This document shows positions 1-23,403 of a stretch of 64,000 bases of DNA, in pieces. How positions within the stretch are numbered: the stretch's first letter is position 1; each line of letters begins with the position of its first letter. This stretch comes from Promethearchaeota archaeon (lineage in GTDB: Archaea > Asgardarchaeota > Lokiarchaeia > Sigyniarchaeales > SOKP01). The stretch lies in contig JAHLWS010000068.1 of assembly GCA_019057795.1 (NCBI GenBank), positions 1-64,000 of the forward strand, written 5' to 3'. The position numbers and the translations under genes were made by a program. A model generated the notes under the pieces. That model saw nothing but the letters and a program-made list of their open reading frames with translations. It did no database searches and was not told the DNA's origin.

Positions 1-185
1 GTTTCAATCTTCTTTTTGAAGCTATTTATTCTGTGACTTTTGAGATTTGTAAAATTATAGTGAAGCGTGGTCGAGTTTCAATCTTCTTTTTGAAGCTATT
101 TATTCTGTGACGTCCAAGATTTACAGATGCCAACGAAAAAATAGAAATGTTTCAATCTTCTTTTTGAAGCTATTTATTCTGTGAC
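1..185 (-). CRISPR. CRISPR array, leader-proximal end: 3 repeats of 37 bp and 2 spacers of 37 bp; probably continues left of the window
   Basis: Identical repeats at 1-37, 75-111 and 149-185. The minus strand reads GTCACAGAATAAATAGCTTCAAAAAGAAGATTGAAAC, with the canonical ATTGAAAC 3' end and a CTTC/GAAG stem. Spacers at 38-74 and 112-148. Confidence 0.97.
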
Positions 186-1208
186 TCTTATATATTATAT
201 TATAATAATGTAGGAACAAATATATATTTTTTTTCAATCTTTTAGTAAATATTTTAATCGATTAAATTAAGATTTAATTTTATTTAAAAAATAGGAATTA
301 GCAATTTTTTAGAATATTTCAGAAAAATAATACTAATTTTTAGTAGTTTAGACATGAACTTGAATCTTAACGCTTTTGAATTTTTATAATATCTTTCGAA
401 GATCAAGTAAAGTTAAGATCATTTAAAAGGAAATTCGGAGTAATTAAGATTTAATTTAGGGCTTATAATTTAATTTAATAGCAGGGATTTTACGATATGA
501 GTTGAATTGATCGATTAGAGGGAAGTTTTTATGATCTTTTAAATTCAAGACCATTTCTATTGGAAATGAATGTTAAGGCAAGTTCATTTGATAAAGAGAT
601 TTTACATTTGATAGAAGTTAATTGAACTTCATATAAATCAGAGTTTATTTAGCATATAAACTAAACTTCGGAAAAAAATAATTTTATATTCGAAATTACT
701 TTTATACTTTAAATATTATTTCATAAAAAAAGTTAGTAAAAAATTAGTAAATAATTAAGAAGAAAATTTAGATAATTAAAGATAGAGAAGAATTGGAGAA
801 ATTTTCTAATTTTTAATTATTAACACCATTGTGTATATAAAATTTATCGAAATAATTCTAAAATTTAATTTAACTCCTCGTGATTTGCAGTTTTAAGGTT
901 GCTAATTCTAATATATAAATCTAACTAAAAGAGATTTCAGATTAGTTTAGTTTTGGAAAAGTAAAGATTTAAAAACAAAAAATATATTAATATTTTTGTT
1001 AGCGACATAAATCTCAACACGAGATATACTCTTAAATTCAAAAAAGAATTGAATGTAGGAAATCAAATTTCAAAGATATTATAATAAGAAAGGAATCTAA
1101 AATATTTTAGTTCGTAAACACTGAAAGAAGAGTAAGAATTTTTAACGGGAATATGGATTCTTTTTTATCTTTTAAGAAATATAGAAGTAATTCGATGAAG
1201 GTATTTTC
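186..1208. promoter_or_regulatory. CRISPR leader plus divergent promoter region of the adaptation cluster
   Basis: About 1 kb, very AT-rich and ORF-free, lying 5' of the array in its inferred orientation and 5' of the first gene. Confidence 0.7.
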
Positions 1209-2525
1209 ATGGCTCTAAAATTTAATTCAATTGAATCTATTGCAATAAAGGAAGGATTAATAGGGGATGTATATGAAGGGACAAAAGGAGAACTTGATGA
1301 TTTTGTTATAAATGCATTATCTAATTATTATCCTATTAAAATTGTTAAGCGATTTATTTTCCGTCCGTTATTAGGAAGATGGTATCCATATATAGATGTA
1401 AAATCACCTGGTTATAGTATGCAATTATCATTATTTTTTGGAAAATTAAATATGACCTTTTCATTAGAAAAAATTTGTTCTGTATGTGGAACAGGATTAG
1501 CCTCTAAAAATTCGATTGATAATTATCTACCTTTAGGATTATGTGAAAAATGCCTTTTAAAATTAAATTACAATTACTGGTATTGTCTGAATAAGGTCAA
1601 AAATGAACACAATAGTATAGATCATTCAACTCAAACCCCTAAAGGGAATCAAATATGTGAAAATTTACTTATACCCTCGTGTGGTTTTCCTATGGTTTCG
1701 GAAAAAACGAATCCATGCTTAAAGAATCATGGTATTGGATTAGTAATAACAGATAACATTACGCTTAAAATAATAATTGGGACTTTAGATACTTTAAAAT
1801 ATAAAATAATACGCGGTGGAGGGATAATTGGAATAATTTTAGGTTATTCCGACAGAATTATGAATATTGAAATTTTAGGTGAAATTTTTAAAGATTTCTT
1901 ACAATTTATTCGTTCTTGTGCTAAAGAATTTAATGATAACACTAAATTTAGCTCAAGGAATTTTGATTTTTTCCAAGAAACAACAGTTAAAGTCGCAGTA
2001 AATCACGATATTCTCAGCTCTATCAATGAATCAAAGGAAAACACAATTAGTTGGTGGTTTTTAATAAATTTCCTAAGATATTATGGAAATTACGGAGCAA
2101 AAGTTCTTGTTAGGGATTTATTAAGGAGACCAATAATTATTTTAAAATTCATAGTTGCTCAATTATTAGAGAGTAAAATATTTAATTTTGAAATTCTGGG
2201 AGTCGTAGAAATTTTCAAATCTTTTTCTCCATTAAATCAATCTCTAAGGGATTTTTGTGAAAAAAGAATTCAGAAGAATTTTAAGATTGAGAGAATTAAT
2301 GATTTCTGGTCAACTTTTAGAAAATATTTAAGAAGAAGAGAAATATCCAATTTTTCGAATTTTTTTGACTTAGAATTCATTTCAGATTTAGAAAATATTG
2401 AGAAGGAATTAGAGATTAAAGAAGTGTTAACTTCTTTCGGTCCAAATTTAGTAATAGATTCAAATTTATCAAAAAATCCAATTATAATAAGTATAGATGA
2501 TTTGATCGGTAGAACGATATTTTAG
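1209..2525 (+). CDS. DUF2797-like Cys-rich protein, cas1-linked
   Basis: CSVCG..CEKC..C..C..C..CLKNH cluster followed by LKIIIGT..IIRGGG, and a C-terminal FGPNLVI..ISIDDLIGR, matching the DUF2797 layout. Its TAG abuts the cas1 ATG. Confidence 0.65.
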   Translation: MALKFNSIESIAIKEGLIGDVYEGTKGELDDFVINALSNYYPIKIVKRFIFRPLLGRWYPYIDVKSPGYSMQLSLFFGKLNMTFSLEKICSVCGTGLASKNSIDNYLPLGLCEKCLLKLNYNYWYCLNKVKNEHNSIDHSTQTPKGNQICENLLIPSCGFPMVSEKTNPCLKNHGIGLVITDNITLKIIIGTLDTLKYKIIRGGGIIGIILGYSDRIMNIEILGEIFKDFLQFIRSCAKEFNDNTKFSSRNFDFFQETTVKVAVNHDILSSINESKENTISWWFLINFLRYYGNYGAKVLVRDLLRRPIIILKFIVAQLLESKIFNFEILGVVEIFKSFSPLNQSLRDFCEKRIQKNFKIERINDFWSTFRKYLRRREISNFSNFFDLEFISDLENIEKELEIKEVLTSFGPNLVIDSNLSKNPIIISIDDLIGRTIF

Positions 2526-3623
2526 ATGAGGAAAGAAAGGATGGATATTATTTTAGAAACTCCAGGGACTCGTGTTGGAAAAAAATTAGAGATGTTAAAG
2601 ATTGATGTTTTAAATAAAAGCCCTATTCAAGTTCCTATTAGGGAAGTGGAGAGTATAATTATGGGAAGTGGAGTTCAGATAACATCTCAAGCACTTCAAG
2701 CATTATCTTCACATGCTGTGAATATTGTGTATACAAAATTAGGTAAACCCTATGGATTGTATACACCGTTTGCAAATGTAGGTACGGTATTTACGAGACG
2801 ACAGCAATTATTAGCTTACGAAGATTGGCGCGGAGTGTATTTAGCAACTCGATTTGTTTTTGCTACATTAGAAAATAAAAGGCGTTTACTTCTATATTTT
2901 GCTAAAAGTCGTAAAAAAACAAACCCAGCCAAATATATCCGTTTAAAAGCAGCAGCAAGACATATCGGAAAAATGATTGATGTGTTATTAAAATTTTCAA
3001 AAAACCAAGCAAAAGGTAAAAAAATTAGTGATGTAAGAATGAATTTAATGGGAATTGAAGGTCGTGCTACATCAATCTATTTTTTAGAATATGGAAACTT
3101 ATTTCCACAAGAATTTAAAGTATTAAATCGCACTCGCCGCCCTCCGAGGGATCCTGTAAACTCTTTACTGTCCTTAGGATATACTGTTCTATTGGGGCAT
3201 GTAATTACAGGAATTGCTGCAGCAGGATTGGAATTATATGGAGGATATTTACATAGCGATCGATCAGGAAAACCATCATTAGGATTGGACTTACTTGAAG
3301 AATTTAGGCAACCCGTAATAGATCGCCTTGTAGCAAGATTAATTCAGAAGAAACAATTTAAACCTAAAGATTTTATTAATAGTTTACACGGATTTCGGTT
3401 GAATGATGATAAAAGATCTTTCTATTACAAGAAATTAAGAAGTGAAATTAATGGAGGGAGCAACGAACCAGAAGAATTATTTGGACAACCTAAAGTTAAA
3501 GTTAGTAAAGATAAAGCCGTAAGGTTGAATTATAAAAGAGCAATGGTTCGACAAGCTAGGAGATTAGCAAACTATTTAATCGGGGCGACTTCTTCTTATG
3601 AACCATTTATAATGAATTGGTAA
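2526..3623 (+). CDS. cas1: CRISPR-associated endonuclease Cas1
   Basis: LMGIEG, RRPPRDPVNSLLSLGY, GYLH and DLLEEFRQPVIDR motifs; catalytic E/H/D present. Confidence 0.98.
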   Translation: MRKERMDIILETPGTRVGKKLEMLKIDVLNKSPIQVPIREVESIIMGSGVQITSQALQALSSHAVNIVYTKLGKPYGLYTPFANVGTVFTRRQQLLAYEDWRGVYLATRFVFATLENKRRLLLYFAKSRKKTNPAKYIRLKAAARHIGKMIDVLLKFSKNQAKGKKISDVRMNLMGIEGRATSIYFLEYGNLFPQEFKVLNRTRRPPRDPVNSLLSLGYTVLLGHVITGIAAAGLELYGGYLHSDRSGKPSLGLDLLEEFRQPVIDRLVARLIQKKQFKPKDFINSLHGFRLNDDKRSFYYKKLRSEINGGSNEPEELFGQPKVKVSKDKAVRLNYKRAMVRQARRLANYLIGATSSYEPFIMNW

Positions 3624-3701
3624 TCTTAAATTAATGAAAATAAAATTGGTAGCGAGAAATATTTGAATAAATTGAACAACAATTTTTAGATGTGAAATTG
3701 A

Positions 3702-3995
3702 ATGAAATTTATAATAATTTATGATATCCCAATCGAATTTGATCCAATTAGAGCAAAAATATCCAATGTATTACTCTCTTATAATTTAATTCGCTTAAAT
3801 TTTTCAGTTTTTTTCGGCAATTTAACATACAATCTTGCAGAGGAAATAGCTTTAAGGTTGAAGAAAATAATGGGAAAGGTTCCAGGAGATGTACGAATTA
3901 TTCCTATATGCAAATCTTGTCATTCAAAAGCAATTACAGTAAAATCAAAATTCGCTAATGGATATAAAATGATAGAAGATATCCTTTCTATGTAA
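3702..3995 (+). CDS. cas2: CRISPR-associated protein Cas2
   Basis: IIIYDI start, SVFFG, C-terminal IPICKSC; follows cas1. Confidence 0.95.
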   Translation: MKFIIIYDIPIEFDPIRAKISNVLLSYNLIRLNFSVFFGNLTYNLAEEIALRLKKIMGKVPGDVRIIPICKSCHSKAITVKSKFANGYKMIEDILSM

Positions 3996-4089
3996 TTTTT
4001 AGCACATTATCTTTAGAAACAATATTTAAAAGTAAGAATAAAAAATATAAAATTGTAAATAGACTAAACAATAAGAAAACCTTTAATTT

Positions 4090-4755
4090 ATGAATTCTAT
4101 AGATTCAGAAAATATAAAAGATTATATTTTGAATAAACATCAGTTTAATATTCTTAGATTAAATAATCCAATGATTAATTTATATGAAAAACCAATAATT
4201 GGGACTGAAGAAATAAGACAATTTTCATATTGTAAAAGAATTTTATTCTTTAGACATATAATCCATGCACCAATGAAACAATCATATAAAATGGAATTTG
4301 GAACTAAGAAACATAACATGCTTCAAAAGATTTCTAATAAATCGAAAGAGAATTATACTCAAAAATATTTTAACATTTATTTAACGGATCCTTTTCTCGG
4401 TTTAGTGGGACTTATTGATTATTTTGAGTTTAACGGAAAGGAAGCATATCCAGTAGAAATAAAATCTGGAAATATTCCTCTGGAAAATATTGATAATCCT
4501 CATAAACATCAAGTAACAGCCCAAGCAATATTAATTGAAAAAAATTTTGATTTTTTAGTTAAAAAAGTTCGTGTATATTATTCAAAATATAAAAAGATCG
4601 TTGATTACTCAATAGGAGTAGAAGATAAACTCAAAGTTATCGAAATAATTAGTGATATTAGAAAATTATTAGCATTAGAGCAAATACCCGACCCAACAAA
4701 AGATAGAGGGAAATGTATTGATTGTGAATGTCGAAATTATTGTTTAAGAGGATAA
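4090..4755 (+). CDS. cas4: CRISPR-associated exonuclease Cas4
   Basis: YCKR, GLID, VEIK, QVTAQA and CxxCxxxxxC Fe-S cysteines. Confidence 0.95.
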   Translation: MNSIDSENIKDYILNKHQFNILRLNNPMINLYEKPIIGTEEIRQFSYCKRILFFRHIIHAPMKQSYKMEFGTKKHNMLQKISNKSKENYTQKYFNIYLTDPFLGLVGLIDYFEFNGKEAYPVEIKSGNIPLENIDNPHKHQVTAQAILIEKNFDFLVKKVRVYYSKYKKIVDYSIGVEDKLKVIEIISDIRKLLALEQIPDPTKDRGKCIDCECRNYCLRG

Positions 4756-4778
4756 TTCTGGAAGAAGTGAAGATATAA

Positions 4779-5963
4779 ATGAAAGATATTTTTCAATCCA
4801 ATCCGCTCAAAGAATTTAGAATATTTATAAATAACTCTATTAACCAAATGAAAGAGTCTAAAGGCAAAAATGAGAAAATAGATATTAGTTATAATAATAT
4901 TTTTGGACTTAATATTTGCATCGATGGTATTAACATTGCGATAGACCATTGGAACCCTAATGCAGATATAATATTTGTATCACATGCTCATATGGATCAC
5001 ATCCCTTATATTCCAGAAAAAAACCTAAAAGATTTGGAAAATAAACAATCTCATATAAAATTTATCTGTTCTAAAATTACAAAAAAAATAGCAGAAGCTC
5101 GCACAAGAGGAAGATTTAATTTTCCTGAAAAATTATGGTTGCTTGGAAAAGATAAAAATTATCCTCAATCAATAGATTATAATGGAATTATATTAACTTC
5201 AATTGAGAATGGGCACACTTATGGCTCTTTAAGCTTATTAATTGAGGGTTCCGAAAAAATTCTTTATACAAGCGATTTCATTACAAAAGATCGCCTATTA
5301 TTTAATGGACAACAAGTTATTAAAGGGTTAATTCCAATTAATTGCGATCGATTAATCATGGAATGCACATTTGGGGCTCCAAATTTTATTTTTCCAAGTT
5401 TTCAAGAAATTCGAAAAGAATTAAATAAATATATAGAAAAGGAGATATCTAAAGGGCATCCCGTCATTATTTTAGGCTATGCCTTTGGTAAAAGCCAAAT
5501 TACTTTAAATATTCTAGACCCCTCCCATAGAATTATACTCGATAAAAATATCGTCAAATTAACGGATATTTTAGAAAATGAAGGAATTAAAATCACTAAA
5601 TGGGAACCTTACGGTAATTTTAATAAAAAACAATTAATACGCTTAAATGACTATATTCTTCTAATTCCCCCTTATTATATATTTAGAGAACCTTATAAAA
5701 GTCTAATTAATGCTGGAGCAAAAGTAGTCTATCTTTCAGGAAAAGTTTTAAATGAATCTTCCCGCAGAGAATTTCCCGCAGAAAAATATATCCCATTTAG
5801 CGACCATTGTGATTTTAATGATTTAATAGAATTTGTTGGTAGATGTAACCCCAAAAAGATATACTTAAAACACGGGAAAATCGAAGAATTTTCATATTAT
5901 CTATCAAAAATTAATAGAAATCAACAAATATTTTGTATTCGCGAGAAAATTAAATTAGTTTAA
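4779..5963 (+). CDS. MBL-fold beta-CASP nuclease
   Basis: SHAHMDH, GH, YTSD, ECTFG, YAFGKSQ, FSDH and KHG motifs. Confidence 0.9.
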   Translation: MKDIFQSNPLKEFRIFINNSINQMKESKGKNEKIDISYNNIFGLNICIDGINIAIDHWNPNADIIFVSHAHMDHIPYIPEKNLKDLENKQSHIKFICSKITKKIAEARTRGRFNFPEKLWLLGKDKNYPQSIDYNGIILTSIENGHTYGSLSLLIEGSEKILYTSDFITKDRLLFNGQQVIKGLIPINCDRLIMECTFGAPNFIFPSFQEIRKELNKYIEKEISKGHPVIILGYAFGKSQITLNILDPSHRIILDKNIVKLTDILENEGIKITKWEPYGNFNKKQLIRLNDYILLIPPYYIFREPYKSLINAGAKVVYLSGKVLNESSRREFPAEKYIPFSDHCDFNDLIEFVGRCNPKKIYLKHGKIEEFSYYLSKINRNQQIFCIREKIKLV

Positions 5964-6450
5964 TCAAACCAAATAATTTAAAAAAAGAATTATTGAAAGC
6001 TAAAATGATTAAAAATTATTAAATTTGTTAAGTTCAATAGTTTTATATAGAGCGATTATAAACATATTAAACCCATTTGAAAGATAAAATTTTATATTGA
6101 ATAATTTTTAATCATAACAATTAATAAAATCATTAAACTTATCAAAATGATTTTTATGATTAATTTGGGTATGCTTAATTTATAGTTAGGATTACCAATT
6201 TCAATATCTTGCTTTGAAAAATATTTTAACATATTTCAGAGCTAAAAAAGTAAAGATTTATACACTTATTTTTAATAAATCATAATGGATCATATCAATA
6301 TAATTATTAAAAAAGACATAGTTTCAAGAAAAAAATTATATTTTTTTATTAAAAAAATTTTTGAAGAGCATAATATTCATACTAGAGATTATTGTACAAT
6401 CAAAGACAGAGACGTATGCATAGTTATATTTGATGAATCTAAAGAAAAAT

Positions 6451-6547
6451 AAAATAACTAATTTAGCTTCAATTTGAAGATTGAAATTAATGTTTTATAA
6501 AGATTGTAAAAAGAAAAAAACATTAGCTTCATAAAGAAGATTAAAGA
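6451..6547 (+). CRISPR. Degenerate two-repeat mini-array (candidate regulatory crRNA-like RNA)
   Basis: TAGCTTCAATTTGAAGATTGAAAT (6464-6487; 20/24 to the repeat 3' part) and TAGCTTCATAAAGAAGATTAAAG (6524-6546), 60 nt apart, with the CTTC/GAAG stem kept. Confidence 0.75.
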
Positions 6548-6686
6548 AAATCTGATAAAAAATTAAAAATTTGTTAAGTCTTAAACATTTAAATATTAAA
6601 ACCCATTATTTAATATCAAACATAAGATAATGAACTCCTTGGAGAATAAATAAATTATTAAAGAATTTAGAAAACGATTTGTTAAT

Positions 6687-8207
6687 ATGATTGATAGCAT
6701 AGTTAATCTAGGAAAAGCCTTTGTAGCATTAGAAAGAAATATTGAATTTAATGATGTAAATTCATTAACTTTTAATGAAATAGTTCAATATTTTTCAAAT
6801 CCTCCTTTTAATTTGGATTATTTTATGAATGATATAGAAAATAACTATAAATTTCCAAATATCTTTTTCATTGAATTTAAAATTATTGACAATAATGTTG
6901 AATTTGTTAAAATTAGTAAGGAAATATATAAACAAGAATATGATGATAAAGTTCTAAATTATCCAGCAAGAGGAGGGGTTTATAGTACACCAACTTTAAA
7001 AATAATTCCCAAAGGAAAAAAAACAGATGACATTAAGAAAAAAATTGCAAATGGTATTGAAAATTCATTAAATCATATTAAGAAGTATTTTAATAAATTT
7101 GAAAAAGATAAAAAATACAAAGATTACACGCTTTTAACTAAGATAAGCAAAATTTTTGGAGAAAATTTTTCACAAATTAAACAGCAATTATTAGAGAAAC
7201 AATTAAAGATTTTTCCTTATGAGAATAAAATAAATACAGGTATTAATTCTCTACTTTCTATTAAAATTGATAATAAATTACCCTTTAAGATTAAAGAAAT
7301 AGTCGAAGCTTTTAATGAAAAATTAATGAGTGATTACGACTTTAAAAAAGTAAGTGAAATTAATATTTGTAGCTTATGCCATGATGATAATTCAGATAAA
7401 TTATTATCTGGAAATTTTTCGCCATTTACATTTTATACTTCTGATAAAAGAGGATATATAGCAAGTGGTTTTAATAAGAAATTTGCATATTTAAATTATC
7501 CAGTATGTAAAAAATGCGCGTTTTATGCACTTATTGGTGCTAATATATTAAAAACTCAATTCAATTTTAAACTTGGAGGAATTAAATTTTTCTTAATTCC
7601 ACGAATGTTACTTTCAGATGCTCATATGAAAAAATTCTTAATTCAATTCAGTGATGTTAGAAATAAATTATTTACTAAGAAAATTAGTTATGAACAATTT
7701 TCTCAAGGTGAAGAATTAATTCTTGATGTTTTGGCGGGTTTTAATAACTCTATGGTTTTCAATTTTTTATTTTACGAATTATCTGGTCCTGGTAATTCAG
7801 TATTCAATATATTATTACTTATTCAAGATGTATCTCCAAATCGAATTCAAACAATTAATGATGAAATAAAAAATGTTGATAGCTTTGATAGAAAACCATT
7901 ATTTCCTGGAGTAAATGGTGATAAATATCCTATGGTATTTTCATTTAAAAATTTAAGAAATTTATTTTATGATAAAAATTTAAGATATTTTGATAGAGAT
8001 AAATATTTACAAACCTTATGGATGCTTTTTACTGGAAAAAATATAATGTTTAAGAGACTATTAACATTTTTTTTTAAAAAATTAAAAAATAACTTATATT
8101 TAAATAATGCTAGTACAATCAATTTAAGCTATAATATTAAAGAATTTATTCCAATCGTTTTATTATTTGTGAAATTAAACCAATTAATAATTAAAGGTGA
8201 AAAATGA
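6687..8207 (+). CDS. cas8b: Type I-B large subunit Cas8b (Csh1/TM1802-like), lacking the C-terminal domain
   Basis: CSLC..FTFYTSDKRGY..NYPVCKKC..FFLIP..IQDVSP motifs; first gene of the Cascade operon. Confidence 0.9.
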   Translation: MIDSIVNLGKAFVALERNIEFNDVNSLTFNEIVQYFSNPPFNLDYFMNDIENNYKFPNIFFIEFKIIDNNVEFVKISKEIYKQEYDDKVLNYPARGGVYSTPTLKIIPKGKKTDDIKKKIANGIENSLNHIKKYFNKFEKDKKYKDYTLLTKISKIFGENFSQIKQQLLEKQLKIFPYENKINTGINSLLSIKIDNKLPFKIKEIVEAFNEKLMSDYDFKKVSEINICSLCHDDNSDKLLSGNFSPFTFYTSDKRGYIASGFNKKFAYLNYPVCKKCAFYALIGANILKTQFNFKLGGIKFFLIPRMLLSDAHMKKFLIQFSDVRNKLFTKKISYEQFSQGEELILDVLAGFNNSMVFNFLFYELSGPGNSVFNILLLIQDVSPNRIQTINDEIKNVDSFDRKPLFPGVNGDKYPMVFSFKNLRNLFYDKNLRYFDRDKYLQTLWMLFTGKNIMFKRLLTFFFKKLKNNLYLNNASTINLSYNIKEFIPIVLLFVKLNQLIIKGEK

Positions 8208-8638
8208 TAACCGAAATTATTACAGATGAAAATAATAAAGGAAAATATAGTGATATAATTAATAATTATTTTGAAAAGTATAAGGATTTTTTTAAAAATG
8301 TCGAATCTAGAGCAGTTTTTCTTGAAGGTGTTTTAGCGGGCCTTTTATTAGAAATTCAAAGAGTTCAAAACCCAGATAAGAAAGGTAATGAGGCTTTTTG
8401 GAGATCTTTACATAATTTACGGATAGATAATCGGATACTTCTAGAGCTTTTTCCAAAAATAATAAATAAATTAAAACAATTACAGCGTCCTTATACGAAT
8501 TTAGTGAGTGAAATATCAAAATTTTTACAAGATGCTGGTAAAAAATGGAATTTATCTAATATTGAACTTAGTTGGTATTTTACTCACGGATTAGCTTCAT
8601 ATAAATATTTTAAAATAAAAAGAGGTAAAAAAATATGA
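8204..8638 (+). CDS. cas11: Stand-alone Cas11-like small subunit (C-terminal domain of Cas8b)
   Basis: FLEGVLAGLLLEIQ..KLKQ..WNLS..ELSWYFTHG resembles the Cas8b C-terminus; GGTGA RBS and ATGA overlap. Confidence 0.8.
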   Translation: MITEIITDENNKGKYSDIINNYFEKYKDFFKNVESRAVFLEGVLAGLLLEIQRVQNPDKKGNEAFWRSLHNLRIDNRILLELFPKIINKLKQLQRPYTNLVSEISKFLQDAGKKWNLSNIELSWYFTHGLASYKYFKIKRGKKI

Positions 8639-9588
8639 GTAAAAATGAGATAATAAATAACCGTGCAGAAATAGCATTTTTTTATGATGTTAGAGATAAT
8701 AATCCTAATGGAGACCCTTTGGCAGAAAACAAACCAAGGATGGATGAAGAGACGGGAATAGGTATCGTAACTGATGTTCGACTTAAAAGAACTATTAGAG
8801 ATTATTTAAGGGATTATGAAAATCAAATAATTTTAATAGACGATTTTGAAAAAGACGATAATACTATTAAAATGGCTAGAGAAAGAGCTGAGGATTTTAT
8901 AAAAAAAAATAAAGATTCCAAACCATTAGATCTTTTAATAGAGAATTGCATTGATGTTAGATTATTTGGATGTGCTATTCCTTTGGGAGAAAAAAAGAAA
9001 TCGATCCAATTAACTGGACCTGTTCAATTTAATTATGGCAGGTCAGTTCATAAAATCGAGCCAATCCTCCTTCAAGGGACTGGAGCTTTTGCAAGTAGAC
9101 CAGGTATGAGACAACGTACATTTAGAAATGATTATATAATACATTACGGATTATATAGATTCTATGGTATAATCAATGAGAAATTAGGAGAAATAGCGAG
9201 ATTAACTGAATCAGACATTAAATTATTGATCAAAGCTCTTTGGAAAGGAACTGAAAGATTACAATCGAGATCAAAAATAGGACATTCTCCCCGATTGCTA
9301 GTTAAACTAGAATATAATGAACCCGAATTTTTTATCGGACAAATCGACAAATTAATTATCACTTCTAAAATAGATCCATCAATAGACGACTTAGCACTCC
9401 GAGATATTTCTGAATTTATTTTTGATATAGAGCCATTAGAGCAAAGAATAAAATCTAACATAGATAAAATAAAATGTGTATCTCTTAAGGCAGATCCAAG
9501 CTTAAAATTCAAGGATGATAAGAAAATAATAGATATTATGAATAAATGGAAAGATGAGAAAATTCCTATTGAGGATTTGAATTTTTAA
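8635..9588 (+). CDS. cas7: Type I-B Cas7 (Csh2)
   Basis: NPNGDP..PRMD, TDVRLKRTIRDY, DVRLFG, TGPVQF, SRSK. Confidence 0.97.
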   Translation: MSKNEIINNRAEIAFFYDVRDNNPNGDPLAENKPRMDEETGIGIVTDVRLKRTIRDYLRDYENQIILIDDFEKDDNTIKMARERAEDFIKKNKDSKPLDLLIENCIDVRLFGCAIPLGEKKKSIQLTGPVQFNYGRSVHKIEPILLQGTGAFASRPGMRQRTFRNDYIIHYGLYRFYGIINEKLGEIARLTESDIKLLIKALWKGTERLQSRSKIGHSPRLLVKLEYNEPEFFIGQIDKLIITSKIDPSIDDLALRDISEFIFDIEPLEQRIKSNIDKIKCVSLKADPSLKFKDDKKIIDIMNKWKDEKIPIEDLNF

Positions 9589-9600
9589 GGTATTTTTATA

Positions 9601-10410
9601 ATGGATGAATGTTTAACTTTTGATATTTCGGGAGATTTTGGATACTTTAAGAAGTTTTATACTACTTCATCTCCATTAACTTATGAAATCCCCCCAAAAA
9701 CAGCATTAACAGGGATAATAGGAGCCATTCTAGGATTATCTTATGAGCAACGATATGAATTATTTGAATGTAAATTTGGAATTAAAATTTTAAATGCAAT
9801 TAGAAAGATATATTTAGGAATTAATTGGTTAAATACTAAAGTAAGAAATACAAAAAATTTTCCTAATTCTAATAAAGATTTTCTAAATAGTCTACACTTA
9901 CCTCCTAAACCAAATATTGCTGTGTTTCTAGGAATGGAATGGTTAGGTCAATCACCCCATACTCAAGCAAAGTTAGAATTGCTAAAAGAACCAAAATACC
10001 GAATTTATTATCCAAATACGAACATTTTTTTTAATAAACTTCTAGAAAAAATTAAGGCTCATAAAAGCTATTTTACACCATTTTTAGGAGCAAGTGAATT
10101 TATTTGTAATTTTAAATTTAATGAACTTTTATATTTTACTAAAATTGAGAATAATTCCTCAGAAATCGAAATTAGTACAATTGTTCCAACAAATTTATTA
10201 AACCTTGAAAGCTCCAATCCAATTAATTTTATACATTCAAATTTATACAAAATAAATACTCCTTATATAATGAAAAACCCCCGAATTATACAAGATTATC
10301 AAGATATTCTATATAATCCCTTTGGGAAATCAATTAAGGTTGTTGTGAAAGAATATTATGAATTAAGAGCTAAAAATAATAAAAAAATTGAGAATGTTGT
10401 TTTCTTCTAA
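9601..10410 (+). CDS. cas5: Type I-B Cas5
   Basis: GDFGYFKKFYT..SPLTYEIPPKTALTGIIGAILG, PFLG. Confidence 0.96.
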   Translation: MDECLTFDISGDFGYFKKFYTTSSPLTYEIPPKTALTGIIGAILGLSYEQRYELFECKFGIKILNAIRKIYLGINWLNTKVRNTKNFPNSNKDFLNSLHLPPKPNIAVFLGMEWLGQSPHTQAKLELLKEPKYRIYYPNTNIFFNKLLEKIKAHKSYFTPFLGASEFICNFKFNELLYFTKIENNSSEIEISTIVPTNLLNLESSNPINFIHSNLYKINTPYIMKNPRIIQDYQDILYNPFGKSIKVVVKEYYELRAKNNKKIENVVFF

Positions 10411-13003
10411 TTTGTATAAAATAGAATCTCATCCAAATAAACCATTGAAAAAACATCTTCTAAATGTTATTAAAAGCTCTTTAAAATCTCTTTCATCTAT
10501 TTTAGAAAACAGTAATTTAAGCGATTATGAAGATTTTTTAAAAGATTATCTAATAATTATCGGATATTCCCATGATTTAGGAAAATCTACAGTTTATTTT
10601 CAAAATAAGTTATATTCTGAAAAGAGTATTAGGACAAGAGAAAGTTCTCATTCCCTTATTTCTTCTTTATTTACTTTAGTATTACTAAAAAATTATTTTG
10701 ATAATTATTCAAATCATAATAAAATAAAAGAATTTAAAGAGTTATTTATAATAGCAGGTTTTTCAATTGTTAAAAATCATCATTCTAATCTTAAGAATCT
10801 TTCTTTTCAGTTAGGAGAATTAACATCAAAATATAAAAATCAAGAATATTTAATGAAACAATTGAGCTCTTTAAAAAAAAATTATGATTACTTAGAAAAT
10901 CTTTATCATATTATAATAAAAGACAATATTAACATATTAAAATGTTTAACATTCAAAAATGTTTTTGAAATTGTTGAAGCAATAGTAGAGAAAATGGTTA
11001 ATGGTAAATCTGAAAATATATCAACAAGAACTATTTATCCAGAGATATCGTCTGGGTTTAATATTTTCAAAAGTAAAAAGAACAATGATGATTTGGAAAA
11101 TAAGATCTTTTTATATATTCTAATTAAATTAATCAATTCTATTTTTTTAGAAGCAGACAAAATGGATGCTGCTTTTGATGGAACAAAAGAATTGCAATAT
11201 GAAATATTAAAAGAATTACCGAAAAGAATTCACCAAAGAATTGATAATCTCAGAAATAATACATTAGACAAAGAAAACCACATTTTTATTGACCGAAATA
11301 AAATATTTGAAGAATCTAAAAGTAATTTGATAAAGTATCTTAAAGAAGAAAATAGTTCTAAAGTTTTGACTTTTAATGCTCCAACTGGATTTGGTAAAAC
11401 ACTTTCTGTTATTAATTGTGTATCCGAATTAATCAATTTCTTAAATAAAGGATCAAATAAAGGAGTTATTAATCAAAAGAAATTGATTTTTAACAAAATA
11501 ATATACTGTTTACCATTTTTGAGCATAACAGATCAAATTTTTAATGAATTTCAAAAAATATTAATACTTGAATCTAACAAACCCTCAGAATTAGTAATTT
11601 GTCATAATCACAGAACTGAGATGAATTATTACAATATTAATGAAGAGCAATTTGCAGGATTAGATGCTCGATTGTTAATTGAGGGATGGAATTCTAATAT
11701 TATTGTAACGACATTTCATCAATTATTTTATTCCTTGTTTTTCAATATTAATATGTTAAACATAAAATTCCATAAAATAATTAATAGTGTTGTTATTTTA
11801 GATGAGATTCAGAGCTTTCCTTTAAAATATTGGATATTAATAAGAGAAGTATTTCAGACTTTAATAAAAAACTTTAATGTTAAAATTATTCTAGTTTCAG
11901 CAACATTACCAATGATTTTTAATGAAAAATCTTCTTTTGAACTTGTGAAAGATAAAGAACAATACTTTAATAGTTTAGACCGTATAAACATACTTATTCA
12001 AAAAAGATTTCATTATGAACTGATTGACCTTTTAGATTTTTTCATTCATTATTTAAAAAATCATCCTGAAGAAAAAAAAATTTTATGTGTTTTCAATACA
12101 AGAAAGTCAGCAAGACAATTTTTTCATGCTCTTAATAGAAAAATAGAAAATCGACAAAATTTTTATCTTTTTTTTCTTTCAAGTGATGTGCTTATTAAGG
12201 ATAGGCAAGAAAGGATAAAAATTATAAAAGAATATCTTTCAGAGCGAAATTTAAAAAAGAAATTAATTTTAATTAGTACTCAAGTTATTGAAGCAGGGAT
12301 AGATTTAGATTTTAATGTAGTTTTTCGAGATTTTGCCCCATTAGATTCTTTAATTCAAGTAGCAGGCAGGTGCAATCGTAATAATAGTTTAAAAAAGAAA
12401 GGAGAATTTTATATATTTAGATTATTTGACATTGAAAATGAAAATTATTTTTCAGATTATATTTACGACCTTACTCTTTTAGAAATAACTAAGAAGATAA
12501 TATTCAAATTTAATAATAACTCCGAATTGAATTCCAAATTTCTTAAACTATCAGAAAATGCGTGGTTTGAAATGTCTAAAGAATATTTTCAAAAGATTCA
12601 AAAAGAAAAATACTCTACTCCAGATTATTCTTTGAGAATTCTTAATGAAATATATAAGTTTAATTTTTTTGACATTTCAAAAAAGTTTAAATTAATCGAA
12701 GATTTTTCAAACTTTCAATTCTATTTAAATATTAATGAAGAATCAAATAATATTTGGAAAAAATTCCTTGATTTAAAAAATGAGAGAGATTTAACAAAGC
12801 GGTATTCAAAATACATAAATCTAAAATCAGATCTAGAATCTTATATTCTTAATTATAATGCTAATAGGACAGAAACTAAAAATATTACAGATTTTATGCT
12901 TAAATATAAACTTAATACTTCTAAAAGAAATTTTATTTATATTCCAAGAGAATTAATAGAATTAATATATGATATATGTGGTTTGAATTTTGAACGGTTT
13001 TAA
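10388..13003 (+). CDS. cas3: Cas3 HD nuclease-helicase
   Basis: HDLGK, HH, ADKMDA; APTGFGKT, DEIQ, SAT, QVAGRCNR. Confidence 0.97.
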   Translation: MRMLFSSNLYKIESHPNKPLKKHLLNVIKSSLKSLSSILENSNLSDYEDFLKDYLIIIGYSHDLGKSTVYFQNKLYSEKSIRTRESSHSLISSLFTLVLLKNYFDNYSNHNKIKEFKELFIIAGFSIVKNHHSNLKNLSFQLGELTSKYKNQEYLMKQLSSLKKNYDYLENLYHIIIKDNINILKCLTFKNVFEIVEAIVEKMVNGKSENISTRTIYPEISSGFNIFKSKKNNDDLENKIFLYILIKLINSIFLEADKMDAAFDGTKELQYEILKELPKRIHQRIDNLRNNTLDKENHIFIDRNKIFEESKSNLIKYLKEENSSKVLTFNAPTGFGKTLSVINCVSELINFLNKGSNKGVINQKKLIFNKIIYCLPFLSITDQIFNEFQKILILESNKPSELVICHNHRTEMNYYNINEEQFAGLDARLLIEGWNSNIIVTTFHQLFYSLFFNINMLNIKFHKIINSVVILDEIQSFPLKYWILIREVFQTLIKNFNVKIILVSATLPMIFNEKSSFELVKDKEQYFNSLDRINILIQKRFHYELIDLLDFFIHYLKNHPEEKKILCVFNTRKSARQFFHALNRKIENRQNFYLFFLSSDVLIKDRQERIKIIKEYLSERNLKKKLILISTQVIEAGIDLDFNVVFRDFAPLDSLIQVAGRCNRNNSLKKKGEFYIFRLFDIENENYFSDYIYDLTLLEITKKIIFKFNNNSELNSKFLKLSENAWFEMSKEYFQKIQKEKYSTPDYSLRILNEIYKFNFFDISKKFKLIEDFSNFQFYLNINEESNNIWKKFLDLKNERDLTKRYSKYINLKSDLESYILNYNANRTETKNITDFMLKYKLNTSKRNFIYIPRELIELIYDICGLNFERF

Positions 13004-13022
13004 AAAATTAATTAAGTAAATT

Positions 13023-13886
13023 ATGCTTAAATTAACATTTGAGTTATATCCGGAAGACGGAAGAATCAAGCCTTATGGTCATCCTTATGGTTATATTTTC
13101 CGTGGTGTTATAATGAAGTGGTTAAGTGATATTAAGCCAGAATTAGTTCATAAGCTTCACGAATTCGAGGAAATCCGGCCATATTCCATTAATTATATCA
13201 TCCATAAAAAGGTTCCTAAGCTTGACTTTATCATCGTTTCTTACGATGATGAGATACAAGATGCATTATTTCAAGATTTAATCACTTCTGAAAAAAATAT
13301 AATACATATTGGTCAAAAGGATTACTATATTTCCCAAGTGAGATTTGAGCGTATTAATATTCGAGATCTAATCGATCAATCAAATCCTGTAAAGTCATTT
13401 AACCTTAATTTTATACGCCCCATATATTTTAACACGAGTAAGGGGGATTATCCAGTGAGATTCCCTATTCCTATCCTTTTATTCGGTAATTTGGCGAAAT
13501 TATGGAACGAAACTGCGAAAAATACCTCTGAAATTGACCGAGAAAATTTTTTAAATTGGGTTAATGTTCATGTGTATGTTAGTGGTTATAAAATGAAGTC
13601 AGTTCGCACCGAAATAGGCAAGCCAAAACCTGTGGTAGGAGGTTTAGGAAATGTAAGTTATAGAGTTGTGAAAATAAACAAACATTATTATAAACATATG
13701 TTAAAAGAAATGAATCGTGAATATGATTACAAATTCGTTAACGATGATTATTCGGGTAATTGTCGCTGGTTAGAGATTTTGTGTAAGCTTGGTGAATATA
13801 CGAATGTTGGTGCTAATCGGACGGCGGGAATGGGAGTAATTCATTATTATCCAGGAAATTATTTAACGGAAAAAAACCTGTTATAG
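13023..13886 (+). CDS. cas6: Cas6 endoribonuclease
   Basis: KLHE..RPYS, FP.P..LF..L..W and the G-rich loop GEYTNVGANRTAGMG. Confidence 0.93.
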   Translation: MLKLTFELYPEDGRIKPYGHPYGYIFRGVIMKWLSDIKPELVHKLHEFEEIRPYSINYIIHKKVPKLDFIIVSYDDEIQDALFQDLITSEKNIIHIGQKDYYISQVRFERINIRDLIDQSNPVKSFNLNFIRPIYFNTSKGDYPVRFPIPILLFGNLAKLWNETAKNTSEIDRENFLNWVNVHVYVSGYKMKSVRTEIGKPKPVVGGLGNVSYRVVKINKHYYKHMLKEMNREYDYKFVNDDYSGNCRWLEILCKLGEYTNVGANRTAGMGVIHYYPGNYLTEKNLL

Positions 13887-14212
13887 AGATAAATATCAAG
13901 TTTTTTGTCTCTAAATATTTCTCATCTCCTAATTATTTGTTCAAATTCTATTTTTAATTTTTATTTTTAATATTGGGCATTGATTTTTATTTATCGTTAT
14001 CTTTATCATTAAAGGTATCTATACAAAGTTTAAGGATGAAATTTTCTAAGAAAACTCACTTATCTTAATTAAGAAAAAGTTTTAGGAAAAATATATCAAC
14101 AGAAGAGAATGTTAATTTTTAGATTTATCTAAATTAAAAACAGGTTACTATAATAAAAATAGTAATTTAAATATAAGAAATTATTTTGTATTAGTTTTAT
14201 CATAAAAATTTT

Positions 14213-15838
14213 GGCTAATTTTACAAAAGTAGGATCAATTATAAATTAGCCCTTTTTTTCATTATCTACATTGATATCACCCAATTTTGTATGTTTGGTA
14301 ATTCTAAAACTTTTAAATTGTTCATGTAAAAACTCCCGCGTACATTTCTACTTATTTGGATCTCTTCTAATATTTCGGGCCGATTTTGGACTATTTCAGT
14401 CGCACGAATCCTTCTCTCCACGGATTTAACGGTTTTCGGACCTCTGAGCCTCATCTTCGAATGGAGGATAGAGTTTTTATTCTCGGAAAGATTATATTGA
14501 ATGCTCAGTAGAGCAAAGAGATTAAGTACTTCTGTCAGCGCCGTTGCGAGCGAGGCTCGCAGATTCTTACTTATCTTTACCGTTTTCCTATACGGGTCTA
14601 CTTTTGCGTAAAACCTTTTTCCCTTGTCAAACACTTTAAATACGCCCCCTCTTACCCTGCTTCTTTTTCGTTTTTGGAGGGTTTTTTTTGCGCTTGTTGT
14701 TCGAACCCTTTGGTCTGCCCTTTTTCTTTGAAGGTGGAGGATTTAAAGGAGCTCTCGTTGTCATGTAGTAGCCCTCGCGCTTGGCACGCTTCTTGGTAAT
14801 GTCTGTTTTCACGCCAATTTCAGTGGTTATTCTTTCCGTGTCGGTATATTCGTGTAGCTTTATGACGGCTTTACCGAAGGGTTTTTTATGCTTATGGATA
14901 ACATGGATGATTTCTCTACCCAAATTTTTGACCATCGCAATGGTACTACCCCAAGCGTCCGATGTTACGATTGCAATTGGGTACTTAGTATTCCGTTCTG
15001 CCTCGTCAAACACTTCGCGCATGTCTTTTTCTTTCCTCGTTGGCGAGACTTTTATACCGAGCGTCTTGCGGGACTCATATCCCGTGGCAACGATAATGTA
15101 GATGGGCTTACCTTCAATCTCCAAGAATGTCTCGTCAATGGCAATGGCTCTATCTGGCTGAGGTATATTCACGAGGGAGTCCAGCGTTTGATGCTTCTCA
15201 ATTGCCGTCTCAATCTCAGTCCTAAGAACAGAAATCTGAGACGGTGATACGCCATATTTTTTGGCAATTGTCTTGTTTTTCGCCCCGTCCTTCAGCAAGT
15301 CGTAATATAACTGCTTAAGTTTGGAATTGATTAATTTCTTATACTCGAAAGATGTAGTTACAATAAATTGTCTTCCTTTTTTGCGTTTTCTTTTACTTCT
15401 TTCTTTTAAGCATGCTGGATTTTTACAGATAAAGCATTCAACCCTATTACTACCGCTTTTTTTAGTTCCATTGGTCCCGATCATCGAGCTACCACAATCA
15501 GGACACTTAATTTTTATTTTGAAGAGCGGGATTTGAAGGCCATTCACCATTACGGCAAAAATGGTTCGCCAAATTATTTCTAAATTTTTGAAATTTCTTT
15601 CAGTCATGAAGAATAATTATTATTTAAAAGATAAATGAGTTTTGATGAGAAATCAAATGTTTTAAGATAATTTGAATAAATGATTAAATGCGTTCTTATA
15701 GTCGGCAAAAATCTATAATTTGCAGAAATATAATGTCGTGCAAAAGTGGTAGAAGATCAAAGAAAAGTAGTAAAATGGCTTAATTTACGAAACTAGATGA
15801 ATCAGTTTATAATTGATCCTTCTTTTGTAAAATTAGCC
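14213..15838 (-). mobile_element. Insertion sequence (IS6-like, DDE) with 33-bp terminal inverted repeats
   Basis: GGCTAATTTTACAAAAG(T/A)AGGATCAATTATAAA at 14213-14245 and inverted at 15806-15838 (1 mismatch); no flanking target duplication seen. Confidence 0.9.
14266..15607 (-). pseudogene. DDE transposase split by a frameshift (ORFs 14636-15607 and 14266-14634)
   Basis: Zn ribbon CPDCG, HTH, AIDETF and TSDAW in ORF1; NLSE.KNS in ORF2. Removing one G from AGGGGGC (near 14645) joins them as KRGVFKVFDKG. Confidence 0.8.
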
Positions 15839-15842
15839 GAAA

Positions 15843-16652
15843 TTACTAAATTATTATCGTAATTTTTTATTTAAATCCTAATTACGATGCTATTATTTTA
15901 TTAGGAAAAATTTTAAATTCAAAAACATGGCTCCTAATTTTGGATTTAAACTTAGGCAGTTAATTAATCAATTTTTTTCAAAGTTTCTTTTTTAATATTT
16001 TCCAATTTCGTAGAAAAGTCTTGTTTCTTTATATGTTGAGATAGCTCTCTCATTAATAGTACTTTATTAGTTTTTACTGATGATTTAGCATTTTCTATCC
16101 TTTGGGTAAAATTAGTTATTGCTTTTTTTTTATCTTTTATTGGAAGTTCTTTGATAAATGCTCCCGATAAATCCTTAATTAATTTATCTTTAATAGGATC
16201 TGACCAACCATATTTAGATCTTATAAAATTACACTGAATAAATTTCTCTTTATTTAATTCAAAATAAGGACAACTACGGCAATATAGATCTTGTAAGTAT
16301 AAAGATGTTTTTGGACATAAAACTAAATCTATTTCTATCTTATCAGGTCTAATCGCTATCTTCTTAACTTTCATTTAATCAGGATTTCATAATTACCTTA
16401 CAAAGAGTATTTGAGTTTAAAAACGAATTATCTTAAATAAATAGATAAATTCATCAATTAATTGATAAAAATTGAGTATTATAAACTTATTTAATTCGAT
16501 TTTCTTGATAAGAGACCTTGTTTATACTTGGATTCGAAAATATTTTATGCTTGTATGAAGCCCACAAACCATTAAAAGAATTGGACTTCTTGCATATATT
16601 CATCTTTTCTAATTTGGAAAGTTACTAAATTATTATCGTAATTTTTTATTTA
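15843..16652 (+). repeat. 31-bp direct repeat pair (15843-15873 and 16622-16652)
   Basis: TTACTAAATTATTATCGTAATTTTTTATTTA is identical in both copies; similarity continues to CGATGCT. Confidence 0.9.
15964..16374 (-). CDS. Hypothetical protein with Cys cluster
   Basis: CP..CRSCPYF..C motif; 136 aa. Confidence 0.7.
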   Translation of the reverse strand: MKVKKIAIRPDKIEIDLVLCPKTSLYLQDLYCRSCPYFELNKEKFIQCNFIRSKYGWSDPIKDKLIKDLSGAFIKELPIKDKKKAITNFTQRIENAKSSVKTNKVLLMRELSQHIKKQDFSTKLENIKKETLKKID

Positions 16653-16678
16653 TATACTTTCGATGCTTTGTTGTTTTA

Positions 16679-17380: not shown

Positions 17381-17657
17381 TTTAGAGACGGTTTATTTTA
17401 TTTATTTTTTTTTATCTTTACTGAATTAAAGAACCTCTGGAAATTTAATTTTTCTTTAAATAAGCTCGCCGATATTTGCTATAAAAATAAGAAAAATACA
17501 AACTAATTAACAGGTAAAAGCGGTGATAAGAAGTTTATTCCCTTAAAGAAGTCCAAAAAGTAAAGAATAATAGAAATGTTGTCGTCGATATAGAATCAAA
17601 TAACAATTCTCGCTCGATAGACGATTATTTGACGGTTGGTTGCTCTTCTCCTGACAA

Positions 17658-18652: not shown

Positions 18653-18756
18653 GAAGGCAGAATAAAGGATTCTTTCTCGTACTATTTTATTAAATACAAA
18701 TGCTAATGGTCCTATAAAAAGAAATATAAAAAGATCTTAAAGTATTACTCTCGCTT

Positions 18757-23375: not shown

Positions 23376-23403
23376 AATTCCCATTAATCATAATAAGCTA
23401 ATA

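What the first reader, a model, noticed from the sequence alone, without database searches (positions are those of the whole stretch)
1209..2525. cas1-coupled DUF2797-like protein appears to have lost its nuclease-like residues
Seen: Cys/His ligands are retained (CSVCG, CEKC, CLKNH), but where I recall DUF2797 having VYLA..KVG.T..RW..QGA this protein has GIGLV..KIIIGT..KIIRGGG. Inference: an inactivated GIY-YIG-like fold exapted as a DNA-binding scaffold or regulator for Cas1, comparable in role to Csn2 or IHF.
Basis: partly seen in the sequence, partly recalled or inferred. Interest (0 to 1): 0.75.

Follow-up and report, generated by a model that had tools for sequence, protein, structure and literature searches.

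The report
Dead-nuclease DUF2797 gene heading cas1 operon
The first gene of this Asgard archaeon's CRISPR spacer-uptake operon is an enlarged zinc-binding relative of the uncharacterised DUF2797 family that has lost its nuclease-type residues and always travels with an extra beta-CASP nuclease; the family is already listed, untested, in a 2023 CRISPR catalogue.

Summary
Pfam does not recognise the protein. Profile-profile comparison (96.6%, E 5.5e-10, N-terminal half) and predicted fold (TM 0.71/0.51 to a DUF2797 cluster) nevertheless tie it to a cas1-linked DUF2797 branch of other Asgard families.

All eight Cys are invariant. The DUF2797 invariants Y, K, R and Q are not kept (Tyr position: G28/A2/S1 of 31).

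The gene precedes cas1-cas2-cas4 plus a beta-CASP nuclease in 13 of 13 loci. None of 7 canonical DUF2797-cas1 loci has that nuclease.

Best reading (about 0.5): a non-catalytic zinc protein of the adaptation complex, with cutting passed to the beta-CASP enzyme. Cas1 binding has only weak predicted support.

It is not new as a link. Its 43%-identical homologue is the type locus of UAS-44, 'Acquisition (DUF2797 large zinc finger protein)', Altae-Tran 2023. This scan also reached the same reading before on another genome. Function is untested.

The parts
1..185 (-). End of a CRISPR array cut by the contig start: three 37-nt repeats (1-37, 75-111, 149-185). They begin GTTTCAAT on the + strand, so the reverse complement ends ATTGAAAC.
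   Evidence: Near-identical repeats form arrays of 13 and 19 copies at the same place in L001 and L003. Transcription from the - strand is inferred from the ATTGAAAC repeat end typical of type I-B handles (own knowledge, not tested).
186..1208 (.). About 1 kb of AT-rich non-coding DNA between the array and the operon: leader plus operon promoter region.
   Evidence: No ORF of 60 aa or more. A gap of similar length is present in L001 (1040 nt) and L003 (about 790 nt), with conserved blocks. Function not tested.
1209..2525 (+). The gene in question (P0001, 438 aa): a derived, enlarged DUF2797-like protein and a member of catalogue family UAS-44.
1338..1475 (+). N-terminal beta-sheet domain (residues 44-89). 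In the model it packs against the C-terminal strands into a small barrel.
1476..1553 (+). Cys4 zinc ribbon, CxxC...CxxC (C90, C93, C112, C115).
   Evidence: Invariant in 31 of 31 members. Aligned to C63, C66, C79 and C82 of cas-linked DUF2797. Metal binding is inferred.
1584..1718 (+). Second four-Cys cluster (C126, C150, C158, C170), within the motif NPCLKNH.
   Evidence: Invariant in 31 of 31 members. Aligned to C93, C106, C113 and C123 of cas-linked DUF2797. Whether it holds Zn or Fe-S is unknown.
1728..1937 (+). GIY-YIG-like beta-beta-alpha-beta-alpha core (residues 174-243) lacking the DUF2797 Y, K, R and Q invariants. It has its own near-invariant residues: H174, I176, G177, K197, Y198, G204, G205, I217 and N219.
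1938..2408 (+). Mostly helical region (residues 244-400), about 130-140 residues longer than in canonical DUF2797. This is what makes the protein 'large'.
   Evidence: Helices 245-386 in the model, against helices 196-230 in the 303-aa canonical model.
2409..2522 (+). C-terminal beta hairpins ending in DLIGRxI (G411 near-invariant, G434 invariant).
   Evidence: The same ending (..DL..L.GR.I) occurs in cas-linked DUF2797. Weak hhalign match of this segment.
2526..3623 (+). cas1, with catalytic residues intact. The real start is probably the second Met at 2541.
   Evidence: PF01867 4.5e-70. E178, H243, D255 and E258 are invariant in 17 Cas1 sequences. Relatives align from residue 6.
3702..3995 (+). 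cas2
   Evidence: PF09827 8e-15.
4090..4755 (+). cas4
   Evidence: PF01930 2.8e-15.
4779..5963 (+). MBL-fold beta-CASP-like nuclease (394 aa, HAHMDH motif present). It is the constant fifth gene of this module.
   Evidence: RMMBL 1.4e-6. TIGR04122 ligase-associated exonuclease 4.8e-32, below its cut-off. Translation. Present after cas4 in 13 of 13 derived-type loci and in 0 of 7 canonical loci.

Best explanation
P0001 is the first product of a five-gene spacer-acquisition operon (X-cas1-cas2-cas4-beta-CASP) found in one Asgard family (NCBI label Promethearchaeota). It descends from the cas1-linked branch of DUF2797, which has a small barrel, two Cys4 metal sites and a GIY-YIG-type core. X has kept the barrel and both metal sites, replaced the residues that are invariant in DUF2797 and correspond to the GIY-YIG Tyr, Arg and neighbours, and gained about 135 helical residues. 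Most likely it no longer cuts DNA. It would serve as a zinc-dependent structural or DNA-holding subunit of the Cas1-Cas2-Cas4 machinery, for example holding prespacer ends or the leader-repeat junction. The beta-CASP nuclease that always accompanies it would have taken over the cutting step performed by the intact DUF2797 enzyme in sister systems. Shown: gene, homology, residue loss, synteny, co-occurrence. Inferred: loss of catalysis, binding to Cas1 or DNA, division of labour with the beta-CASP enzyme.
For: Synteny: X lies directly before cas1-cas2-cas4-MBL in 13 of 13 distinct loci with enough flank, next to two different effector modules (TM1802-type I-B, and Cas_CXXC_CXXC/DevR).

Homology: hhalign A1 against cas-linked DUF2797 gives Prob 96.6%, E 5.5e-10 over residues 43-185, including all 8 Cys. 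Against all 29 DUF2797 it gives Prob 66%, E 5.4e-5 over residues 46-211. The Atlas fold match to a DUF2797 cluster has TM 0.71/0.51.

The canonical branch is cas-linked too: 9 of 9 subgroup-2 DUF2797 genes, from 7 Asgard families, sit before cas1-cas2-cas4. All pass the PF10977 cut-off.

Residue loss. Invariant DUF2797 Y112 maps to position 177 (G28/A2/S1). R134 maps to 199 (Q9/K8/R6 and others). Q138 maps to 203 (E10/G4 and others). K122 maps to 187 (K in only 15 of 31). In the canonical cas-linked set Y, K, R, Q and E are 9 of 9.

Nuclease swap: an MBL gene follows cas4 in 13 of 13 derived loci and in 0 of 7 canonical loci.

The gene is maintained: dN/dS is 0.38, with 12 invariant columns.

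Predicted complex of X with Cas1: weak support. Score 0.43 (runs 0.43, 0.00, 0.45) against a best control of 0.00. The mark was reached by 58 of 80 solved complexes and 2 of 110 mismatched pairs, but at 0.60 or under by only 7 of those 80 and by both mismatches that passed. The runs agree in at least 0% of contacts; partner pLDDT is at least 67.
Confidence: 0.5

Rival explanations
1. X is still a nuclease with a re-wired active site. Family-specific K197-Y198 in helix alpha1, H174 before strand beta1, N219 and E/D221 at the start of helix alpha2 would replace the classical GIY-YIG Tyr, Arg and Glu. X would then trim or generate prespacers itself, alongside Cas4 and the beta-CASP enzyme.
For: K197 (30 of 31), Y198 (29 of 31), H174 (27 of 31), N219 (29 of 31) and an acidic residue at 221 (24 of 31) are conserved inside the GIY-YIG-like core. 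H174 is shared with the canonical cas-linked branch (C-x3-H before strand 1). dN/dS of 0.38 shows the gene is constrained.
Against: The position of the invariant beta1 Tyr is Gly, Ala or Ser in all 31 members. The Arg and Gln positions are variable. The glutamate candidate is missing in 7 of 31 members. hhalign against the cas-linked branch stops exactly where the core begins, so the core is the most diverged part. X diverges about twice as fast as Cas1 in the same loci: 27-44% identity to the window's copy, against 62-77% for Cas1.
Confidence: 0.2
2. X is a DNA-binding regulator or leader-recognition factor. It would bind the unusually long (0.8-1 kb) array-proximal region to control transcription of the operon or array, or to mark the integration site, in the way IHF does in type I-E and I-F.
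For: The layout array, then about 1 kb AT-rich gap, then X is conserved in three loci, with conserved sequence blocks in the gap. The protein has two Cys4 sites and a small barrel of the kind often used for nucleic-acid binding. It is the first gene of the operon.
Against: No HTH or other known sequence-specific DNA-binding domain was detected. Conservation in AT-rich DNA is easily overstated. Nothing links the conserved blocks to X.
Confidence: 0.15
3. X is a decaying or functionless remnant of a DUF2797 gene that merely persists in the operon.
For: It has lost the family signature and is the fastest-evolving gene of the operon.
Against: The full-length open frame is kept in 13 loci and in 31 aligned full-length members out of 45 cluster representatives. 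There are 12 invariant and 22 near-invariant columns. dN/dS is 0.38. The AF2 model is confident (pLDDT 78.8, pTM 0.80).
Confidence: 0.03

Closest known systems
UAS-44, 'Acquisition (DUF2797 large zinc finger protein)', Altae-Tran et al. 2023, Science (PMC10910872, supplement)
   Same: Same family. The catalogue's type gene GCA_016840085.1 JAEOTA010000034 18467_19766_-1 is my locus L001 gene P0004 (record positions 18468-19766, minus strand). It is 43% identical to P0001 over the full length (E 7.7e-97) and has the same X-cas1-cas2-cas4-MBL-I-B order.
   Different: The catalogue gives only a label and a locus count (8 loci); DUF2797 is not mentioned in the main text. Loss of the signature residues, descent from the cas-linked canonical branch and the constant beta-CASP partner are worked out here. 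This scan also reached the dead-nuclease reading earlier on another genome.
UAS-13, 'Acquisition (DUF2797)', same catalogue: the canonical cas1-linked DUF2797 of other Asgard families
   Same: First gene of cas1-cas2-cas4 operons. Same barrel, the same 8 Cys and the same C-terminal GR.I ending. hhalign Prob 96.6%.
   Different: About 300 aa, passes the PF10977 cut-off, keeps Y, K, R, Q and E in 9 of 9, and has no beta-CASP gene after cas4 in 7 of 7 loci. That my subgroup 2 is UAS-13 is inferred from the label; its type locus was not fetched.
GIY-YIG nucleases (Slx1, At-HIGLE, UvrC N-terminal domain)
   Same: The beta-beta-alpha-beta-alpha core topology. Slx1 also couples the core to a zinc-binding domain (own knowledge).
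Csa1 and Cas4 (PD-(D/E)XK nucleases that accompany cas1)
   Same: An accessory gene placed in the adaptation operon, with a four-Cys metal cluster, presumed to act on prespacer ends.
   Different: Unrelated fold. Cas4 is present as well in every locus, so X does not replace it.
Csn2 (type II-A) and IHF (type I-E and I-F): non-catalytic adaptation factors
   Same: Proposed role only: a protein without catalytic activity that helps Cas1-Cas2 by binding DNA.
   Different: No sequence or fold relationship. The role of X is untested.

Membership tests
DUF2797 (Pfam PF10977) | Scores above the PF10977 gathering cut-off (25 bits) | tested here: not met
   No PF10977 hit for P0001 or its halves even at E<=10. 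The genome-wide six-frame search of the window's own genome gave no hit at this gene. All 27 control DUF2797 proteins do hit.
DUF2797 (Pfam PF10977) | Detectable homology to family members by profile-profile comparison | tested here: met
   A1 vs cas-linked DUF2797 (A4): Prob 96.6%, E 5.5e-10, residues 43-185. A1 vs all 29 (A3): Prob 66%, E 5.4e-5. A1 vs non-cas DUF2797 only (A7): Prob 7.8%.
DUF2797 (Pfam PF10977) | Same overall predicted fold | tested here: met
   The only ESM-Atlas row is a DUF2797 cluster (PF10977 in 94% of members): TM 0.51 by query, 0.71 by target, 258 aligned, rmsd 3.4. The order of secondary-structure elements is the same in the two AF2 models.
DUF2797 (Pfam PF10977) | Eight conserved Cys (CxxC...CxxC plus four more) | tested here: met
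   31 of 31 for all eight, aligned one-to-one with the eight Cys of the cas-linked branch.
DUF2797 (Pfam PF10977) | Signature VYLA / KVG / R(W) / QG / E (invariant Y, K, G, R, Q, G, E) | tested here: not met
   Invariant in 29 DUF2797 proteins. In X the mapped positions are G177, K187 (K in 15 of 31), K199 (variable) and G203 (variable); only the Gly (G204) is kept. The Glu candidate E221 is E in 20 of 31.
GIY-YIG nuclease superfamily | beta-beta-alpha-beta-alpha core fold | tested here: inconclusive
GIY-YIG nuclease superfamily | Catalytic Tyr in strand 1, Arg in helix 1, metal-binding Glu in helix 2 | tested here: not met
   The Tyr position is G, A or S in 31 of 31. The Arg position is variable. 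The Glu is only partly kept. Mapping is by alignment, not superposition.
UAS-44 (Altae-Tran 2023 catalogue) | Homologous to the catalogue's type gene and placed in a cas acquisition module | tested here: met
   The type gene is P0004 in L001 (coordinates match). P0001 vs P0004: 43% identity, residues 2-438, E 7.7e-97. The gene order is identical.
Non-catalytic adaptation factor (Csn2/IHF-like role) | Binds Cas1-Cas2 or DNA and is needed for spacer integration | not testable with these tools
   The only result is a weak in-silico pass for X with Cas1: 0.43 against a best control of 0.00. The mark was reached by 58 of 80 solved complexes and 2 of 110 mismatched pairs, but at 0.60 or under by only 7 of those 80 and by both mismatches.

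The most novel reading that the evidence does not exclude
In one Asgard lineage the adaptation module has swapped its nuclease. The ancestral cas1-linked GIY-YIG-type DUF2797 enzyme became a pseudo-nuclease kept as a zinc-dependent adaptor. A newly recruited SNM1/Artemis-like beta-CASP DNA nuclease now does the prespacer cutting. X would physically bridge that nuclease to Cas1-Cas2-Cas4, giving a five-protein integrase-processing complex of a kind not described for any CRISPR system.
Probability: 0.25. Interest if true: 0.65.

Novelty: new member of a known kind. Interest (0 to 1): 0.42.

Why it matters
Spacer acquisition is the least understood stage of CRISPR immunity in archaea, and no Asgard system has been studied biochemically. 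Two forms of an unstudied protein, one apparently intact and one apparently dead, head cas1 operons across the phylum. The dead form always comes with a beta-CASP nuclease. This natural comparison makes the role of both proteins in prespacer processing directly testable. It would also give DUF2797, a widespread family without a known function (present in Pseudomonas and Acinetobacter according to papers), its first functional context. The link itself is already catalogued, so the value lies in the mechanism, not in the discovery of the association.

Tried and rejected
**Searches that found nothing**
- Pfam, NCBIfam and PADLOC scans of P0001 and its halves gave nothing meaningful. The best rows were E2 phage protein at E 0.21 and PD-T4-10_B at E 0.016.
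- A profile search of PDB sequences with A1 gave only a generic CPxCG zinc finger at E 0.1. The same search with the DUF2797 profile A5 gave nothing related.
- Foldseek against the PDB found no match at E<=0.001 for either model.
- The protein-atlas search by features gave no usable hit.
- hhalign of A1 against a shallow 8-sequence non-cas DUF2797 alignment gave Prob 0.3%. Homology appeared only when the cas-linked subgroup was included.
- A viral-contig scan with A1 found no relatives, so there is no sign of a virus-borne copy.

**Ideas rejected**
- X as a Cas6 substitute: cas6 is present at 13023-13886.
- X as a replacement for Cas4: cas4 is present in all loci.
- The gene as a chance ORF or pseudogene: see the rival explanations.

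**Limits**

Full report
**What is there**

The window starts inside a CRISPR array, with three 37-nt repeats at 1-185. About 1 kb of AT-rich non-coding DNA follows. Then comes a co-directional gene row:
- ORF 1209-2525 (P0001, 438 aa)
- cas1 2526-3623, cas2 3702-3995, cas4 4090-4755
- an MBL/beta-CASP-like gene 4779-5963
- cas8b in two ORFs (6687-8207 and 8204-8638), cas7, cas5, cas3 and cas6 (13023-13886)

This is a type I-B locus. The cas island has 21-30% G+C, against 29-41% further along the window.

**Is it DUF2797?**

Direct family searches say no. There is no Pfam, NCBIfam or PADLOC family, even at E<=10. A six-frame PF10977 search of the whole genome does not hit this gene.

The protein does have relatives. 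There are 45 cluster representatives at 50% identity. All named ones come from 'Promethearchaeota archaeon' MAGs, that is Asgard archaea.

An AF2 model built on 31 of them is confident (pLDDT 78.8, pTM 0.80). The only row returned by the ESM-Atlas shape search is a DUF2797 cluster (TM 0.51 by query, 0.71 by target, 258 residues, rmsd 3.4).

To test this with real sequences I searched 301 Asgard genomes with PF10977. 118 carry a bona fide DUF2797 gene of about 300 aa, but 0 of 68 do in the window's own family.

Aligning 29 of these proteins shows invariant C49, C61, C74, C77, Y112, K122, G124, R134, Q138, G139 and E159.

The DUF2797 proteins fall into two groups. In the first, the neighbouring genes checked (L009-L018) are not cas genes, and none of the loci has a cas hit by tblastn. 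All nine members of the second group, from seven Asgard families, lie directly before cas1-cas2-cas4.

Profile-profile comparison places P0001's family next to that cas-linked group:
- P0001 family vs cas-linked group: Prob 96.6%, E 5.5e-10, residues 43-185, covering the N-terminal sheet and all eight Cys.
- P0001 family vs the non-cas group alone: Prob 7.8%.
- The two DUF2797 groups against each other: 99.7%, E 8.7e-27.

P0001 is therefore a divergent offshoot of the cas1-linked DUF2797 branch. It has moved too far for the Pfam model.

**Is the core GIY-YIG-like, and is it dead?**

I modelled a canonical cas-linked DUF2797 protein (pLDDT 85.1) and searched 48,161 PDB chains with it.

Using the alignment anchored on the invariant Gly (G204 = G139), the DUF2797 invariants map as follows:

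| DUF2797 invariant | Position in P0001 | Residues across 31 family members |
|---|---|---|
| Y112 | 177 | G28 / A2 / S1 |
| K122 | 187 | K in 15 of 31 |
| R134 | 199 | Q9 / K8 / R6 and others |
| Q138 | 203 | E10 / G4 and others |

The likely Glu equivalent, E221, is E in 20 of 31 and D in 4. In the nine canonical cas-linked proteins Y, K, R, Q and E are all 9 of 9.

The family has its own near-invariant residues: H174, I176, G177, K197, Y198, G204, G205, I217 and N219. It also carries about 135 extra helical residues.

So the loss of the signature is real and family-wide. That it means loss of catalysis is an inference, for two reasons. No DUF2797 protein appears to have been assayed: only five papers in the library mention the family, and none of their titles or abstracts concerns its function (the papers were not opened). 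I also could not superpose coordinates.

**Context**

In 13 of 13 distinct loci with enough flank the order is X-cas1-cas2-cas4-MBL. It sits next to either a TM1802-type I-B effector module or a Cas_CXXC_CXXC/DevR one, so the five genes move as a unit.

The MBL protein has the HxHxDH motif. It is closest to the ligase-associated DNA exonuclease family (TIGR04122, 4.8e-32, below cut-off).

None of seven canonical DUF2797-cas1-cas2-cas4 loci has such a gene after cas4. In two, cas8b follows directly, and in one a long CRISPR array (about 8 kb) follows.

The derived form was found only in the window's own family (5 of 68 genomes plus this one; 0 of 232 elsewhere). That family has no canonical DUF2797 at all. 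The contrast is therefore probably one evolutionary event, not 13 independent ones.

X is the fastest-evolving gene of the operon. Its identity to the window's copy is 27-44%, against 62-77% for Cas1. It is still under purifying selection (dN/dS 0.38 over 59 differences).

The layout of array, then a 0.8-1 kb gap, then X recurs in L001 and L003.

**Mechanism**

The best reading (about 0.5) is a non-catalytic, metal-binding subunit of the adaptation machinery, with the nuclease job handed to the beta-CASP enzyme.

A predicted X-Cas1 complex gave only weak support. The score was 0.43 (runs 0.43, 0.00, 0.45) against a best control of 0.00. The mark was reached by 58 of 80 solved complexes and 2 of 110 mismatched pairs, but at 0.60 or under by only 7 of those 80 and by both mismatches. 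The runs agree in at least 0% of contacts; partner pLDDT is at least 67.

The rivals are a re-wired nuclease using K197, Y198 and E221 (0.2), a leader-binding or regulatory factor (0.15) and a functionless remnant (0.03).

**Prior knowledge**

A look-up in this scan's own notes pointed to Altae-Tran et al. 2023. I checked it.

The supplement lists UAS-44, 'Acquisition (DUF2797 large zinc finger protein)', with type gene GCA_016840085.1 JAEOTA010000034 18467_19766_-1, and UAS-13, 'Acquisition (DUF2797)'. That type gene is exactly P0004 in my locus L001 (record 10468-27766 reversed, gene 8001-9299). It is 43% identical to P0001.

DUF2797 is not discussed in that paper's main text. The terms Asgard, GIY-YIG and zinc ribbon do not occur in the 2025 CRISPR classification, whose beta-CASP passages concern the type VII effector. 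That paper is also not among the five that mention DUF2797.

The scan has also reached the 'dead-nuclease DUF2797 ahead of cas1' reading before on another genome (e1-5573321).

The window's gene is thus a new member of a catalogued but untested family.

Noticed in passing
window 186-1208; L001:6962-8000; L003:7213-8000: The non-coding gap between the last CRISPR repeat and the first cas gene is unusually long (0.8-1.0 kb) in three loci. It contains blocks conserved among them, for example around window 500-530 (TTCGAAATTA...TTTAAATAT) and the first 50 nt next to the repeat. They could be leader and promoter elements or a small RNA. AT-richness inflates the apparent identity.
   Followed up: partly
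window 6687-8207 and 8204-8638: cas8b (Cas_TM1802) is split into a 506-aa and a 144-aa ORF. The same split (508 + 147 aa) is called in the related loci L001 and L002. It therefore looks like a real, conserved large-subunit plus small-subunit arrangement and not a sequencing error.
   Followed up: partly
window 1-14000 versus 14000-64000: The CRISPR-cas island has 21-30% G+C, against 29-41% for the rest of the window. A DDE transposase-like ORF (14636-15607, minus strand) lies just past cas6. This suggests the island was acquired horizontally.
   Followed up: no
window 20192-20836: A stand-alone HNH endonuclease gene (PF01844, 3.8e-14) lies between a GNAT-like gene (18757-19929) and an ORF without a family (21100-22329). 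It is possibly a mobile insert.
   Followed up: no
L027 and L041 (G074:C1:1044100-1059000): One Asgard genome has a canonical DUF2797-cas1-cas2-cas4 module followed directly by a CRISPR array of about 8 kb. The 37-nt repeat is GTTGCAATTAGGATCTCAGAATAGTGAGAATTGAAAT. No effector genes lie within 10 kb on that side.
   Followed up: no
Asgard genomes, the genome search: Non-cas DUF2797 is nearly universal in some Asgard families (f9 62 of 76, f7 24 of 28, f29 11 of 11) and was not found in others (f1 0 of 68, f14 0 of 19). In L009, L010 and L017 it lies next to a Cys-rich ORF (..CDLCARRC..GFCRVR..) that looks radical-SAM-like; that annotation was not tested. This may be a lead to the family's ancestral role.
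   Followed up: no
L003:13042-17290: The same X-cas1-cas2-cas4-MBL module is joined to a different effector set (Cas_CXXC_CXXC large subunit, DevR-type Cas7) in another metagenomic contig. This shows the adaptation module is shuffled between effector modules.
   Followed up: no
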